Below the pieces are notes generated by a model that was given only the letters and a program-made list of their open reading frames with translations, was not told the origin of the DNA and did no database searches. From positions 7,206 to 71,205 of the forward strand of contig DYEQ01000076.1 in NCBI GenBank assembly GCA_020725645.1: DNA of 64,000 nt. Reading direction: 5' to 3'. The stretch's first letter is position 1; each line of letters opens with the position of its first letter. This document shows, in pieces, positions 51,467 through 55,814 of the stretch. Both the position numbers and the translations under genes were made by a program. Source of the stretch: Candidatus Fermentithermobacillaceae bacterium (lineage in GTDB: Bacteria > Bacillota > Sulfobacillia > Fermentithermobacillales > DUSS01).

Positions 51467-52159
51467 TCAGTCCCGCCTCGACCTCAAAAGGAACAGTCGA
51501 AGGAATTGAGCTATCGCCATCGCGGTGGCCGCGACGTAAGTGAGAGCGGCGGCGTTCAGCACTTCTCCCACGGGCCTTACCTCGTCCCGGGAAATGTACC
51601 CGCCACCTTCCAGCATTTCCATAGCTCTTCGGGATGCGTTGTACTCAACGGGAAGGGTGATGACTTGGAAAACCACGGCACCCCCGAAAAGGAGGAGACC
51701 CAAATCCATGAGGAAACCGCTGTTCGTGAAAAGACCCATGATGAAGAGGGGAAACGCCGCCATCGACGCAAACTGCGCCACCGGAACCAGCCCATTCCTT
51801 ATCTGCAACCCCGCGTATCCCACCGCATGCTGAACGGCGTGCCCCACCTCGTGAGCTGCTACGGCCAGGGCAGCGACGGACGAGCTATCCATAGTTCCCG
51901 TCGAAAGCCTCAGAGTCCTGCTCCTGGGATCGTAATGATCCGATAAAGCTCCCGGTATCCTCTCTATTTCCACATCGTCCAGTCCGGCCTGGCGCAGAAG
52001 ACCTTTCGCCACTTCGTAGGCGGAATAGCCTCTTGAGGATCTGACTCTTGAATACTTCTCATAAGCAGTTCGGACTTGCATCTGCGCCCAGATGGCGAAA
52101 ACCAGGGCAGGCAAGACGAATAGAATATAGCCGCTGTCAAAGAAGAAGTACGGCATCAT
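51467..52159 (-). CDS. YugP-like membrane zinc metallopeptidase
   Basis: The HExxH motif (AAHEVGHAVQH), an N-terminal TM helix and C-terminal hydrophobic segments are present, in the conserved ylo neighbourhood. Confidence 0.65.
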   Translation of the reverse strand: MMPYFFFDSGYILFVLPALVFAIWAQMQVRTAYEKYSRVRSSRGYSAYEVAKGLLRQAGLDDVEIERIPGALSDHYDPRSRTLRLSTGTMDSSSVAALAVAAHEVGHAVQHAVGYAGLQIRNGLVPVAQFASMAAFPLFIMGLFTNSGFLMDLGLLLFGGAVVFQVITLPVEYNASRRAMEMLEGGGYISRDEVRPVGEVLNAAALTYVAATAMAIAQFLRLFLLRSRRD

Positions 52160-53619
52160 TTTACCCCTCCTTTAGCGTGTCCATCTCCAAACCGGCTGGG
52201 AAGCCCCGCCCGCCCCCTGAGAAAAGCCGCAGCTGACATCGGCCTTTTCCCCGAAGGCTGCACCGTAACCAGGCCCAGGGTGCCTTCGCCGCACGCCACG
52301 GCGACCTGGTCTACGTCCACGGACAGGATTTCGCCCGGAACGCCCGCGGCTTTTTCTCTAGACAAGACCCGGGTTTCCCAGAGTTTAATACGTTCGCCAC
52401 GGTACCAGGTCGTCGCGCCCGGTTCGGGGGAAAGCGCTCGCACCAGGTTGTGAATCTCGATGGCGCTCCTATTCCAGTTTACCACCTCTTCGCCGGGCTT
52501 CAACAGGGGGGCCTTAGTGGCCTTCGACGCGTCCTGCGGGGTGCGAGGCGCCGAACCGGCTCTGATGAGTAAAATCGCTTCTATGAGGGAGTGGGCTCCC
52601 AGGGACGCAAGCCTCTTTTCGAGGGTACCGAAAGTCTCATCCGGTCCGATTTCCACAGCTTTTTGGACGCAAATGTCACCAGCATCCATTTCTTCGGACA
52701 TCCACATTATGGTCACGCCGGTGGTCGTTCGCCCATCCATGATCGCCCTTCGAATGGGGTTAGCTCCCCGGTACTCCGGTAAGAGCGAAGCATGGACGTT
52801 CAGCGCCCCCATCTTCGGAAGCGCCAGGATCTCGCCGGGGATTTTCTGACCGTACGCCGAAACCACTATTAAGTCGGGCGAAGCTTCCTCAATCGCCCTC
52901 ACGCTTTCGGGGGAACCCACTTTTTCGGGGGTTATCACGGGTATGCCGAGCTCCCGCGCCCTGACCTCCACCGGAGTGGGAGTGAGCTTCCGTTTCCGCC
53001 CTTTGGGCCTCGGGGGTTGCGTCACCACGAGTTTCACTGGGAAACCCGCCCTCACCAGTTCGTCCAAAGAGGGAAGGGCGAACTCGGGACTGCCCATGAA
53101 AACGACCGCCGGCAGCGCCAGCGTCTCGGCGACGACTTCGCCCGCCTCTTCTTCCGGCACTTTCGTGACTGCCGATGCGCGATCGAGGAAGACGACCCCG
53201 TCCAGGTGGTCTATTTCGTGCTGAAGAGCTCTGGAGAGAAGTCCATCTCCATCCATCCAGAACTCGTGGCCATCCCGGTCCAATGCTTTTACCGTAACCC
53301 TGGCGTATCGCTCGACCTCTCCCAAAAGTCCGGGGAAGCTCAAGCACCCCTCCCAGGCGGTTTCCGTTTCGTCCGAAGTTCGGACTATCTCGGGATTCAC
53401 GAGAAAGCGGGGTCCTTCCCCCACATCGACCACCACCAGCCGCTTGGACACCCCGATCTGCGGCGCAGCTAAACCCACTCCCTGAGCTTCCTTCATGGTA
53501 TCCAGCATGTCATCTAAGATCTGCCGGATTTCCCTGGTAACCTTCCGAACGGGTTTTGCCTTTTTCCTCAAGACCGGGTCGTCAAACTTCCGTATTTCCT
53601 TCGCCGCCACCGGCGTCAC
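52156..53619 (-). CDS. def-fmt: Single ORF fusing peptide deformylase (N-terminal ~165 aa) to methionyl-tRNA formyltransferase (C-terminal ~310 aa)
   Basis: Def motifs GVGLAAPQIG, EGCLSFPG and QHEIDHLDG are followed in-frame by the linker DRASAVTKVPEEEAGEVVAETLALPA. Fmt motifs follow: VVFMGSPEFALPSL, VVTQPPRPKGRKRK, NVHASLLPEYRGANPI, TGVTIMWMSEEMDAGDI. I re-translated the junction (53110-53200) from the DNA and found no stop. Confidence 0.8.
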   Translation of the reverse strand: MTPVAAKEIRKFDDPVLRKKAKPVRKVTREIRQILDDMLDTMKEAQGVGLAAPQIGVSKRLVVVDVGEGPRFLVNPEIVRTSDETETAWEGCLSFPGLLGEVERYARVTVKALDRDGHEFWMDGDGLLSRALQHEIDHLDGVVFLDRASAVTKVPEEEAGEVVAETLALPAVVFMGSPEFALPSLDELVRAGFPVKLVVTQPPRPKGRKRKLTPTPVEVRARELGIPVITPEKVGSPESVRAIEEASPDLIVVSAYGQKIPGEILALPKMGALNVHASLLPEYRGANPIRRAIMDGRTTTGVTIMWMSEEMDAGDICVQKAVEIGPDETFGTLEKRLASLGAHSLIEAILLIRAGSAPRTPQDASKATKAPLLKPGEEVVNWNRSAIEIHNLVRALSPEPGATTWYRGERIKLWETRVLSREKAAGVPGEILSVDVDQVAVACGEGTLGLVTVQPSGKRPMSAAAFLRGRAGLPSRFGDGHAKGGVK

Positions 53620-53750
53620 CTCACATCAGATGCGCATAAGGCTTCAGGCGCATCTTTTCGAATTCCCTTCTGACATCCCGCTGCGCCATAAGCGATAAAC
53701 TTTCCGGCGCGGGTTCTGTAAAAGCTCACAGTTATAGCCGTGAGAGGTTT

Positions 53751-55814
53751 TCAGACCAGCCGAACCGGGTCAACATCCACGGTGATTCTGGTGCCGGACC
53801 CGATTTCCCAGAAAATCTCCTCCGCTTTCGATGCGAGGGCGGTCACCTTCGCGCGGTCCGGACCCTTCAGTAAAATATGCCAGCGGTAGGCGCCCCGTAC
53901 TCTCTCCTTTAGACAGGGGGCCGGTCCGAGGACAGTCACCCTTCCTTCGCCGGAAACCTCGTCCTGCTCCAAGCTTAACGCTTCTGCCCGAAGTTTCTCC
54001 GCGAGGCCCGAGGCCTTTTCTCTTACCTTTCCCTCGCCTTTCCCCACCACCTCGATGCGGGCGAGGACACCAAAAGGAGGATATCCCAACGCTTTTCTAT
54101 CTTCCATCTCTTCCTCGTAAAAAAGGTCTTCGTCCTTTTCGGCGATCCACCTTATCGAACGTCTTAACGGGTCAAAAGCCTGCAGAACAAAGACACCCGT
54201 CTTCTCGTCGAGGAGATCCCACAGCCGGGACAGGGTGAGATAAGCATCCTCTTCCACGTTAAATCCGGGGAGACCGAGTCTGGAACCGGCGAAGGGTACC
54301 GCAACCAGTTCAAGCGGTCCGGACTGAAGCGCCGTCGCAACCCCTATAGCCATCTCAGTGCCGATGAGGCACGCTGGTCTCGTAGAGAGGAACCTTCCTA
54401 CGGTCGTCTCGGGCTCTTCGAGCCTGGCGGTGTCCGCGTCCACGCGGAAAACAGGGACCTCCGGGAAAAGCCGGGAGAACTCTTCCTCCAGCCGCTCGGT
54501 GCCGAAGCCCCTTGGCTTTAGGGAGTATCCTCCGCATTCGGGACACGTCTCAGGGACGGGGGTGGAGTGCCCGCAGACGTGACACACCATAGACCTCGAC
54601 CCGGAATGAAATGAGAGAGCCACCGAGCATCTCGGGCAAACCGGAACGTAACCGCAATCCCCACAGAAGAGGGCCCTTCCATATCCCCGCTGGTTGAGGA
54701 AGATAAAAGCTCTGCCTTTGCGGTCGAAGCAATCTTTGAGCGCGTCCGCCATCTTCCAGGATAGTATCTTGCCCTTCCGGCGATACTTGCGCGCTTCGAT
54801 GACCTGAACCTCACCGGGGTAGCGCGGACCTTCATCTTTTAGAAGGTCGTACGTCCCGCTGTTCAGGGCAAACCGGGAATTCACCGGTAACCGGCTGACC
54901 CCTATGATGACTCGGGCCCCTTGAAATCTTCCGCGCATGACGGACACGGTGCGCGCGTCGTACCTCGGATGGTCTTCAGCCTTGTAGGAATCGTCTTCTT
55001 CAAGATCCACTATTATCAGGGAAAGGTCTTTTACCGGGGCGAATACGCCCAGCCTGGTACCGAGGACGAGTCTTTTCTCTCCCCGGAGTAAGCGGAGCCA
55101 TTCTTCCCTTCGCCTCTTGTCAGTCATGCCGGAGTGAACTTCGGCAAGGGTTTCGCCGAAAAGGGGCCTAATCTTATCCTTGACTCTTCGGACGGCCCGC
55201 ACTTCCGGGAGGAGAAACAGCACGCCCCGCCCCCGGAAAACCTCGTTTTGGATCTGCTCGAGAAATACATCGAACCTGAAGGACTCGGTCCCCCGGACGA
55301 TGAGGGGCTTCGTCCCTTCGCAGGTCACTTGCTCGCGGTTCATCTCTCCCAGCTCGGGCCGTTTCAGGTCCTCGCAGGGGCTCTCGCCGTTAGCTGGGCG
55401 CACGCCGGGAGCGCTCTTTCGCGTGGGAGCGACCGTCTCTTCCAGGGGCCCTTCACCCTTCGCACGGGGTACGCCCGGAGGCCACAAGCATCCCCACACG
55501 GAGGCGACGGGAACGGCATAATATCTCGCGACCTCTTCCCCGAATTCGACGAGATCCGCCGGGGGAAGGTACCGCCGGTCGTAAAGTGTGGATATGTCTT
55601 TAACGGCGACTCCCTCGGGCTCCAGCCCTTCCCCCAGGATGAAACCATTGGCCATTCTCGGGCCGAAGGGGACGGAAACCATGAGACCTTTGACCGGCCT
55701 CGTCCCGGGAGGCAGGTAGTAGGAATAGGGACGATTCCCAATGCCGGGCACATCCACAAGAACGTTCACACATATTTTTCCGCTCAACGCGAGGACCCCT
55801 CTACAAAGAGACAC
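53751..55814 (-). CDS. priA: primosomal protein N' (PriA helicase)
   Basis: 687-aa ORF with helicase motifs and the Cys-rich zinc-binding region (CGDCGYVPVCPRCSVALSFH...CHVCGH...CPECG). Confidence 0.9.
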   Translation of the reverse strand: MSLCRGVLALSGKICVNVLVDVPGIGNRPYSYYLPPGTRPVKGLMVSVPFGPRMANGFILGEGLEPEGVAVKDISTLYDRRYLPPADLVEFGEEVARYYAVPVASVWGCLWPPGVPRAKGEGPLEETVAPTRKSAPGVRPANGESPCEDLKRPELGEMNREQVTCEGTKPLIVRGTESFRFDVFLEQIQNEVFRGRGVLFLLPEVRAVRRVKDKIRPLFGETLAEVHSGMTDKRRREEWLRLLRGEKRLVLGTRLGVFAPVKDLSLIIVDLEEDDSYKAEDHPRYDARTVSVMRGRFQGARVIIGVSRLPVNSRFALNSGTYDLLKDEGPRYPGEVQVIEARKYRRKGKILSWKMADALKDCFDRKGRAFIFLNQRGYGRALFCGDCGYVPVCPRCSVALSFHSGSRSMVCHVCGHSTPVPETCPECGGYSLKPRGFGTERLEEEFSRLFPEVPVFRVDADTARLEEPETTVGRFLSTRPACLIGTEMAIGVATALQSGPLELVAVPFAGSRLGLPGFNVEEDAYLTLSRLWDLLDEKTGVFVLQAFDPLRRSIRWIAEKDEDLFYEEEMEDRKALGYPPFGVLARIEVVGKGEGKVREKASGLAEKLRAEALSLEQDEVSGEGRVTVLGPAPCLKERVRGAYRWHILLKGPDRAKVTALASKAEEIFWEIGSGTRITVDVDPVRLV

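What the first reader, a model, noticed from the sequence alone, without database searches (positions are those of the whole stretch)
52156..53619. Peptide deformylase and methionyl-tRNA formyltransferase are encoded as one continuous 487-aa ORF
def and fmt are normally adjacent but separate genes. Here all three Def motifs (GVGLAAPQIG, EGCLSFPG, QHEIDHLDG) are followed, without a stop, by a ~25-residue linker and a complete Fmt (VVFMGSPEFALPSL ... NVHASLLPEYRGANPI ...). I re-translated the junction directly from the DNA and it is open. A bifunctional enzyme would couple N-formylation and deformylation physically. Alternatively an internal GTG (KVPEEE) could still start an independent Fmt.
Basis: seen in the sequence. 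Interest (0 to 1): 0.55.

Follow-up and report, generated by a model that had tools for sequence, protein, structure and literature searches.

The report
Fused peptide deformylase–formyltransferase gene
The two enzymes that add and later remove the formyl group on the first methionine of bacterial proteins are here truly made as one protein, but such fusions are already in the databases and one (Exiguobacterium) has been shown to work, so this is a real but fairly ordinary new example.

Summary
One open frame on the minus strand (52156..53619, 487 aa; the likelier start is GTG 53610, giving 484 aa) encodes a complete peptide deformylase, a ~20-residue acidic linker and a complete methionyl-tRNA formyltransferase.

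It is not a sequencing artefact. The same architecture occurs in 14 species-representative genomes of the window's lineage (Candidatus Fermentithermobacillaceae and related Bacillota MAGs, 50-89% identical). It also occurs in more than 110 protein clusters elsewhere, including cultured Thermaerobacter, Exiguobacterium and Patescibacteria.

All catalytic residues of both domains are invariant in 50 diverse fusions. The linker varies in length and sequence, is mostly acidic, and is predicted to be disordered. No conserved in-frame start codon or Shine-Dalgarno sequence precedes the Fmt part, so an independent Fmt is unlikely.

[quoted passage not shown] UniProt labels such proteins 'Multifunctional fusion protein'. 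A near-identical protein is already deposited at NCBI as 'methionyl-tRNA formyltransferase'.

The fusion probably arose several times, by loss of the stop/start junction between adjacent or overlapping def and fmt genes. Verdict: genuine bifunctional fusion, a new member of a known kind, of low-to-moderate interest.

The parts
52156..53619 (-). Continuous def-fmt ORF as flagged (GTG to TGA, 487 aa)
52156..53610 (-). Likelier CDS (484 aa), starting at the second GTG; identical to the deposited protein P0001
   Evidence: P0001 is 100% identical and starts MAAKEIRK
53616..53622 (-). Shine-Dalgarno-like GAGGTGA, 5 nt upstream of GTG 53610; it contains the first GTG
   Evidence: read from the sequence
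53164..53601 (-). Peptide deformylase domain (aa 7-152). Motif 1 GVGLAAPQ at 53458-53481, motif 2 EGCLS at 53338-53352, motif 3 HEIDH at 53206-53220
   Evidence: the model superposes on T. maritima PDF 1LME, TM 0.91-0.97, rmsd ~1 A
53107..53163 (-). Linker (aa 153-171, ...DRASAVTKVPEEEAGEVVAETLALPA). Acidic. The core at 53125-53148 is predicted disordered (pLDDT < 50). No in-frame start codon with an SD
52573..53103 (-). Fmt N-terminal (Rossmann-type formyltransferase) domain, aa 173-349. Basic loop PRPKGRKRK at 52987-53013; catalytic N274/H276 within 52765-52800; DAGD (D312) at 52675-52686
   Evidence: TM 0.93 to B. anthracis Fmt 4IQF and 0.91 to E. coli 2FMT
52210..52503 (-). Fmt C-terminal domain (Formyl_trans_C), aa 373-470
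52156..52159 (-). ATGA overlap: the stop TGA of def-fmt overlaps the ATG of the downstream Zn_peptidase_2 gene (51467..52159), suggesting translational coupling

Best explanation
This is the housekeeping def-fmt locus of a Candidatus Fermentithermobacillaceae-like bacterium (Bacillota). In this lineage the stop/start junction between the two adjacent genes has been lost. One ~53 kDa polypeptide therefore carries an N-terminal metallo-peptide deformylase and a C-terminal Met-tRNAfMet formyltransferase, joined by a flexible, acidic, fast-evolving tether. Each module most likely works as its stand-alone counterpart does: Fmt formylates Met-tRNAfMet in the cytosol, and Def removes the formyl group from nascent chains. 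The fusion gives obligatory 1:1 co-expression, not substrate channelling. Shown here: the open frame, the domain identities, invariant catalytic residues, conservation of the fusion across a whole lineage, recurrence in other lineages, and absence of a conserved internal start. Inferred: that both activities are retained in this particular protein (by analogy with the Exiguobacterium complementation), and that the fusion is near-neutral or mildly advantageous.
For: There is a single ORF with complete Def and Fmt models above curated cut-offs. It sits in the canonical gmk-coaBC-priA-[def-fmt]-Zn peptidase-rsmB-PP2C-PASTA kinase-rsgA-rpe cluster, and the 64-kb window holds no second def or fmt. 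The closest genome locus, L001 (89% id, Ca. Fermentithermobacillaceae Bu31), and 13 further species representatives (50-61% id) are fused at the same place. About 118 of the top 120 protein clusters carry all three Pfam domains in one protein, including the finished genome of cultured Thermaerobacter marianensis. Fusions also occur in Exiguobacterium and Patescibacteria. Catalytic residues are invariant in 50 diverse fusions: G44, G46, Q51, E87, C89, H131, E132, H135, N271, H273, D309. The distance from the HExxH motif to the Fmt FMG motif varies from 24 to 85 aa, and the linker has median net charge -4. The AF2 model has pLDDT 93 and pTM 0.69, with only linker residues 155-162 and the C-terminal tail 479-484 below 50. 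No conserved in-frame start plus SD lies before Fmt, and 5 of 15 fused loci have no start codon at all in the linker. Published complementation of E. coli delta-def-fmt by the E. alkaliphilum fusion is reported in PMC12690207.
Against: There is no direct protein-level evidence for this organism, which is known only from MAGs. Activity of this particular fusion is untested. The window protein is only 43% identical to the validated Exiguobacterium one, has a different linker, and is probably an independent fusion. The rest of the genome could not be inspected for a second PDF or Fmt that might relax constraint on one half.
Confidence: 0.85

Rival explanations
1. Sequencing or assembly artefact: a missed stop codon or indel at the junction falsely joins two separate genes.
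For: The source is evidently a metagenome-assembled genome. Neighbouring lineages have def and fmt separated by a single in-frame stop or by a short overlap, so one error could mimic a fusion.
Against: The open junction recurs in 14 species-level genomes at 50-89% identity and in more than 110 clusters from independent assemblies. These include finished genomes of cultured Thermaerobacter and many Exiguobacterium isolates. The linker differs in sequence between them yet is always open. Composition is uniform across the junction.
Confidence: 0.02
2. The long ORF is translated, but an internal initiation site in the linker (the GTG of 'KVPEEE' or another codon) also produces a free-standing Fmt, so the cell still has separate enzymes.
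For: In the window there is an in-frame GTG at aa 154 of the 487-aa ORF (aa 151 of the 484-aa CDS). The linker DNA is purine-rich (GAAGAAGAGG), which resembles SD sequences. One Exiguobacterium mexicanum record is annotated as a 304-aa Fmt only.
Against: No SD-like motif lies at a proper distance upstream of that GTG. The codon is not a start codon in 9 of 14 fused relatives. L006, L007, L009, L012 and L025 have no ATG, GTG or TTG anywhere between the Def C-terminal region and the structural Met of VFMG. No start-like residue is conserved in the linker across 112 fusions.
Confidence: 0.07
3. The fusion is a precursor that is cleaved in the disordered linker to release separate Def and Fmt.
For: The linker is predicted to be disordered and exposed. 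A putative Zn metallopeptidase gene is translationally coupled immediately downstream.
Against: No cleavage motif is conserved; linkers range from 24 to 85 aa with unrelated sequences. The same Zn_peptidase_2 gene follows unfused fmt in many Clostridia (own knowledge, not tested here). No precedent is known.
Confidence: 0.04
4. One half is a decayed, catalytically dead remnant, for example because a second PDF elsewhere in the genome does the work, as all Exiguobacterium genomes have one.
For: The rest of the genome is not available. Exiguobacterium carries a second PDF (PMC12690207).
Against: Metal ligands and catalytic residues of Def (C89, H131, E132, H135) and of Fmt (N271, H273, D309) are invariant in 50 fusions. 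Both equivalog HMMs pass their cut-offs. Both modules are modelled at pLDDT > 90.
Confidence: 0.02

Closest known systems
Exiguobacterium Def-Fmt fusion (e.g. WP_021067074.1 = P0137; E. alkaliphilum fusion tested in PMC12690207, Mol Biol Evol 2025)
   Same: It has the same domain order (Def, linker, Fmt-N, Fmt-C) and comes from a Bacillota member. The two proteins are 43% identical over 470 aa, with all motifs kept. That fusion was shown to rescue E. coli delta-def-fmt.
   Different: The Exiguobacterium linker is 13 residues shorter and unrelated in sequence (...TDKLAVPDKGTDQRIVFMGTPTF versus ...LDRASAVTKVPEEEAGEVVAETLALPAVVFMGSPEF). The two fall in separate all-fused clades in a rough NJ tree, with unfused Fmt sequences between them, so they are probably independent fusion events. 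The window lineage is an uncultured, class-level group (Ca. Fermentithermobacillia).
Thermaerobacter marianensis / T. subterraneus 'Multifunctional fusion protein' (P0063, P0080)
   Same: These are single Def-Fmt polypeptides in cultured, fully sequenced Bacillota-related thermophiles, 46-47% identical to the window protein.
   Different: They have a tight 25-aa junction with the conserved motif PPES.LRVV|FMGTPxF, N-terminal basic extensions, and long low-complexity inserts in the Fmt C-terminal domain. They form a separate NJ clade.
Stand-alone Def (e.g. T. maritima 1LME, E. coli 1BS5) and Fmt (B. anthracis 4IQF, E. coli 1FMT/2FMT), encoded by the def-fmt operon
   Same: Each module matches its stand-alone counterpart in sequence (1e-39 to 2e-72) and in predicted fold (TM 0.91-0.97). 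The genomic position is that of the classical def-fmt(-rsmB) operon (PMC7264889).
   Different: There is no stop or start between the two. The Def tail is short and acidic, not the basic C-terminal helix seen in most of the sampled unfused Defs, which were mainly non-Bacillota (unfused tails have median net charge +6, fused linkers -4). The nearest unfused Bacillota (L035-L044) already have the acidic tail '...NIVEEQADE*' overlapping the fmt start.
Patescibacteria (CPR) Def-Fmt fusions (e.g. Ca. Woykebacteria OGY26988.1 = P0282; P0188)
   Same: They have the same domain order and are also labelled 'Multifunctional fusion protein' in UniRef.
   Different: They are about 38% identical and shorter (435-461 aa), have very short junctions, and come from a distant phylum.

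Membership tests
Peptide deformylase (PF01327 / TIGR00079) | Profile match above the curated cut-off over the whole domain | tested here: met
   PF01327 scores 182.6 bits (cutoff 22.8), profile positions 2-154 of 156. TIGR00079 scores 157.6 bits (cutoff 103.95).
Peptide deformylase (PF01327 / TIGR00079) | Three catalytic motifs: G.G.AA.Q, EGC.S (Cys metal ligand) and QHE.DH (two His ligands plus catalytic Glu) | tested here: met
   GVGLAAPQ at 47-54, EGCLS at 90-94 and QHEIDH at 133-138. These are invariant in 50 fused homologues.
Peptide deformylase (PF01327 / TIGR00079) | PDF fold | tested here: met
   The AF2 module has pLDDT > 90 and superposes on 1LME (TM 0.91-0.97, rmsd 0.9-1.0 A) and on 1WS0 (TM 0.96).
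Methionyl-tRNA formyltransferase (TIGR00460) | Equivalog profile above its cut-off; N-terminal formyltransferase domain plus C-terminal Formyl_trans_C domain | tested here: met
   TIGR00460 scores 291.9 bits (cutoff 201.5). PF00551 and PF02911 are both present. Competing families (ArnA, PurN, PurU) fall below their cut-offs.
Methionyl-tRNA formyltransferase (TIGR00460) | Catalytic Asn/His/Asp triad (E. coli N108/H110/D146, numbering from own knowledge) in the N.H.SLLP..RG and D.GD motifs | tested here: met
   N274, H276 and D312 (487-aa numbering) are present and invariant across 50 fusions.
Methionyl-tRNA formyltransferase (TIGR00460) | Basic insertion loop in the Rossmann domain that contacts the initiator tRNA acceptor stem | tested here: inconclusive
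   A basic loop, PRPKGRKRKLTPTPV (aa 203-217), lies at the expected position, and the model superposes on the 2FMT complex chain (TM 0.91). tRNA contacts were not modelled.
Def-Fmt fusion proteins (as described for Exiguobacterium, PMC12690207) | def and fmt in one uninterrupted ORF, Def N-terminal, at the def-fmt locus | tested here: met
Def-Fmt fusion proteins (as described for Exiguobacterium, PMC12690207) | Both activities retained in vivo (complementation of delta-def-fmt) | not testable with these tools
   Only indirect evidence is available: invariant catalytic residues.
Def-Fmt fusion proteins (as described for Exiguobacterium, PMC12690207) | Common descent from the same fusion event as Exiguobacterium | tested here: not met
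   The linker sequence is unrelated and 13 aa shorter in Exiguobacterium. The two lie in separate all-fused clades on an NJ tree of the Fmt domain, with 18 fused clades and a Fitch minimum of 16 changes. The tree has no bootstrap, so this is indicative only.
Def-Fmt fusion proteins (as described for Exiguobacterium, PMC12690207) | Accompanied by a second, stand-alone PDF in the genome (true of all Exiguobacterium genomes) | not testable with these tools
   There is no second def or fmt within the 64-kb window (tblastn). The rest of the genome is not available.

The most novel reading that the evidence does not exclude
The fusion is not neutral but repeatedly selected: at least about 10 independent origins across Bacillota, Actinomycetota-like, Chloroflexota-like and Patescibacteria lineages, always in Defs that lack the basic C-terminal helix. 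The advantage could be one of two things. Def might tether Fmt near the translating ribosome. Alternatively, the fusion might enforce co-loss, so that any truncating mutation in def also removes fmt. That would convert the lethal def-minus fmt-plus state into the viable def-minus fmt-minus state, with consequences for how resistance to PDF inhibitors evolves in such lineages.
Probability: 0.12. Interest if true: 0.5.

Novelty: new member of a known kind. Interest (0 to 1): 0.22.

Why it matters
It matters little for basic biology. Def and Fmt are textbook enzymes, gene fusions of adjacent operon partners are common, and a Def-Fmt fusion has already been published and shown to be functional.

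There are modest points of value:

- The fusion is fixed across a class-level uncultured Bacillota lineage. It recurs in many more lineages than the four Exiguobacterium genomes noted in the 2025 survey, including cultured Thermaerobacter and many Patescibacteria.
- Automated annotation calls these proteins just 'methionyl-tRNA formyltransferase', so the genome's def can look missing in gene-content surveys.
- The fusions are natural material for asking whether Def needs a free C-terminus to work at the ribosome, and whether linked def and fmt change the routes to deformylase-inhibitor resistance.

Tried and rejected
- **Exact-sequence lookups.** Look-ups of the 487-aa ORF and of P0001 found no recorded contig. 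The organism was identified instead from the genome scan and the cluster members.
- **Internal start.** I scanned 15 fused junctions for in-frame ATG, GTG or TTG with an SD-like motif. Nothing was conserved, so I rejected this reading.
- **Transcription signals at the junction.** A terminator-like hairpin at 53123-53107 lies inside the linker. The region has 8 such sites against 7.4 expected by chance, and the T-run comes from the conserved Val-Phe codons, so I rejected it.
- **Second def or fmt in the window.** None was found.
- **A solved structure spanning both domains.** None was found by sequence or by fold.
- **First tree attempt.** It timed out. I redid it on a thinned set with a simple Kimura-distance NJ tree. 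That tree has no bootstrap support, and the unfused sequences were biased towards relatives of the query, so the count of independent origins is only indicative.
- **Further literature.** Two more searches found only the 2025 MBE paper and operon descriptions.
- **Same-frame arrangement in unfused loci.** Many unfused loci have def and fmt in the same frame, separated by one stop. I considered programmed readthrough and rejected it as unnecessary. Those loci have ordinary fmt start codons, and the tblastn ranking favours same-frame arrangements.
Full report
**1. Observation**

The ORF listing returns a single ORF at 52156..53619 on the minus strand (GTG start, 487 aa). I read the junction DNA directly, and it is open in frame.

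Pfam places three domains:
- Pep_deformylase at residues 7-152 (E 4.7e-54)
- Formyl_trans_N at 173-349 (E 7.4e-41)
- Formyl_trans_C at 373-470 (E 4.4e-28)

The NCBIfam equivalog models for fmt (TIGR00460, 291.9 bits against a cut-off of 201.5) and def (TIGR00079, 157.6 against 103.95) both pass. ArnA, PurN and PurU models fall far below their cut-offs.

- The gene is on the minus strand.
- The stretch outside both domain models is about 19 residues (153-171).
- The likelier start is the second GTG at 53610. It has GAGGTGA, a 7-base match to the extended Shine-Dalgarno sequence that contains the first GTG, 5 nt upstream. It is also the start of the deposited, 100% identical protein P0001 (484 aa).

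**2. Not an artefact**

GC content is flat across the gene. A protein search found that about 118 of the best 120 clusters (90% identity level) carry PF01327, PF00551 and PF02911 in one polypeptide. They range from 100% down to 41% identity.

The window's own cluster includes NCBI entries MBE3519017.1 and HHY34534.1, named 'methionyl-tRNA formyltransferase [Candidatus Fermentithermobacillaceae bacterium]'. It also includes several independently assembled members with the same or a nearly identical junction.

In a scan of one genome per GTDB species, the best hit (L001, 89% identical) is the Ca. Fermentithermobacillaceae MAG Bu31. This group is placed in Bacillota, class Candidatus Fermentithermobacillia.

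I checked all 80 fetched loci for an uninterrupted Def-to-Fmt frame. L001-L013 and L025, all of them at least 50% identical to the query, are fused. About 50 more distant loci have separate genes, and 17 have fmt only within the stretch fetched. A junction that stays open through about 50% protein divergence cannot be a sequencing error.

**3. Context**

The gene sits in the classical Firmicutes housekeeping cluster: guanylate kinase, CoaBC, PriA, [def-fmt], Zn_peptidase_2, RsmB, PP2C phosphatase, PASTA Ser/Thr kinase, RsgA, ribulose-phosphate epimerase. This matches the def-fmt-rsmB operon described for E. coli and B. subtilis (PMC7264889).

Its TGA stop overlaps the ATG of the downstream peptidase gene by 4 nt. 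tblastn with either half finds no second def or fmt in the 64-kb window. This is therefore the primary def/fmt locus, not an accessory copy.

**4. Anatomy of the junction**

*Length and sequence.* Across 112 fused proteins, the distance from the end of HExxH to the FMG of Fmt strand beta-1 ranges from 24 to 85 residues (median 35). The junctions fall into distinct sequence classes:
- the window's clade: 33-41 acidic residues followed by FMGSPEF
- a Thermaerobacter-like class with a tight PPES.LRVV|FMGTPxF junction
- a class labelled Chloroflexota with PKPTPRVV|FFGTPEF
- a class labelled Actinomycetia with long Pro/Gly/Glu-rich linkers

*Charge.* Linkers are mostly acidic, with median net charge -4 and 79% net negative. 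The C-terminal tails of the unfused Defs sampled are mostly basic (median +6). The exceptions are the nearest unfused Bacillota (L035-L044), whose tails read '...NIVEEQADE*' and overlap the fmt start 'M(S)DMVVVFMGSPEF'. The acidic tail therefore predates the fusion. The fusion is most simply explained by a frameshift or stop loss in an overlapping stop/start junction.

*Same-frame neighbours.* Many other lineages have def and fmt in the same frame separated by a single stop, so a one-base change would fuse them there too.

*Internal starts.* At the DNA level, none of the 15 fused junctions examined has a conserved in-frame ATG, GTG or TTG preceded by an SD-like motif:
- The GTG of 'KVPEEE' has no SD and is GTC, GTT, ATT or GTA in nine relatives.
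- Five loci have no start codon at all between the Def C-terminal region and the structural Met of VFMG.

An independently initiated Fmt is therefore unlikely.

**5. Are both halves functional?**

In an alignment of 50 diverse fusions (41-88% identity to the window protein), all key residues are invariant:
- Def metal ligands and catalytic residues: C89, H131, E132, H135, and motif 1 residues G44, G46, Q51
- Fmt catalytic residues: N271, H273, D309 (E. coli N108/H110/D146 by my own knowledge of the family)

AlphaFold2 on that alignment gives mean pLDDT 93.2 and pTM 0.69. Only residues 155-162 (the linker core) and the extreme C-terminus fall below pLDDT 50. This is the picture of two rigid modules on a flexible tether.

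The Fmt module superposes on B. anthracis Fmt 4IQF (TM 0.93, 1.9 A) and on the E. coli Fmt-fMet-tRNA complex 2FMT (TM 0.91). The Def module superposes on T. maritima PDF 1LME (TM 0.91-0.97, about 1 A). No PDB chain covers both, by fold or by sequence.

**6. What is already known**

[quoted passage not shown] All of those genomes also have a second PDF. [quoted passage not shown]

I identified that protein type in my own results as P0137 (461 aa, WP_021067074.1, UniRef 'Multifunctional fusion protein'). It is 43% identical to the window protein over 470 residues, with a linker 13 residues shorter and unrelated in sequence.

Other named fusions include cultured Thermaerobacter marianensis DSM 12885 and T. 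subterraneus and Patescibacteria such as Ca. Woykebacteria.

In a search of 1.84 billion 50%-identity representatives, about 25 of the best 150 hits are fused. The rest are ordinary Fmt proteins of about 310 aa. Set against 8,249 representatives at E <= 1e-30, which are mostly ordinary Fmt, the architecture is a minority state but a recurrent one.

Further literature searches found no other description.

**7. One origin or many?**

I built a rough neighbour-joining tree of the Fmt domain from 232 sequences, 104 of them fused. The fused proteins fall in 18 separate all-fused clades that coincide with the linker classes. The Fitch minimum is 16 state changes, with an unfused root.

The tree has no bootstrap support, and its unfused members were sampled by similarity to the query, so the number is only indicative. 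Combined with the unrelated linkers, the nesting of Exiguobacterium among unfused Bacillales (own knowledge), and the phylum-level spread, several independent fusions are much more likely than one.

**8. Mechanism**

*Best explanation (confidence about 0.85).* A single bifunctional polypeptide is made, and each module acts as its stand-alone homologue does. The fusion provides obligatory equimolar co-expression.

It cannot provide substrate channelling. Fmt's product, fMet-tRNAfMet, has to be used in initiation, and the chain has to emerge from the ribosomal exit tunnel before Def acts (established knowledge).

*Rivals.* Each is addressed in the structured fields and is unlikely:
- assembly artefact: about 0.02
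- additional internal initiation: about 0.07
- cleavage within the linker: about 0.04
- one dead half: about 0.02

*Most novel reading not excluded (about 0.12).* Recurrent fusion may be selected. One possibility is that Def tethers Fmt at the ribosome. Another is that any truncation of def then also removes fmt, which turns a lethal genotype into the viable double-null one.

**9. Verdict**

However, it is a new member (a lineage-wide one) of an already described and experimentally validated kind, and the protein itself is already deposited, although it is under-annotated as Fmt only. Interest is low to moderate (0.22).

Noticed in passing
window 53751..55814 (-): The PriA homologue (687 aa) matches only the PriA 3'-DNA-binding, zinc-ribbon and C-terminal domains in Pfam at E <= 1e-5, with no DEAD/ResIII/Helicase_C hit. 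By eye the Walker A position reads '...RGTESFRFDVF...' where canonical PriA has 'G.GSGKT', and Walker B reads 'VDLEEDDSYK' where canonical PriA has 'VDEEHD.SYK'. The ATPase motifs may therefore be degenerate.
   Followed up: no
window 52156..52159 (-): The def-fmt stop codon overlaps the start codon of the downstream Zn_peptidase_2 (PF04298) gene in an ATGA arrangement. It is the kind of overlapping stop/start junction (8 nt in L035) that the nearest unfused relatives have between def and fmt.
   Followed up: partly
loci L014-L034 (e.g. L014 3687-3690, L016 4480-4483): In about 20 distant genomes (Proteobacteria-, Balneolaceae- and Myxococcota-labelled), def and fmt lie in the same reading frame separated by a single stop codon. 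A one-base change would create a fusion. The tblastn ranking probably enriches for this arrangement.
   Followed up: partly
loci L028, L029, L031, L033, L074 (Rhodobacteraceae): The Def motif and the Fmt motif are 920-1490 nt apart, compared with about 400 nt elsewhere. This is consistent with the clustered multiple PDF genes reported for Rhodobacterales in PMC12690207.
   Followed up: no
protein P0301 (Exiguobacterium mexicanum, 304 aa): One member of the Exiguobacterium fusion cluster is annotated as a 304-aa Fmt alone. This reflects either an alternative start call or a disrupted def half in that strain.
   Followed up: no
window 53107..53123 (-): A GC-rich hairpin followed by GTCGTTTTCA lies exactly in the linker/beta-1 region. 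Terminator-like sites in this region occur at chance frequency (8 found, 7.4 expected).
   Followed up: yes
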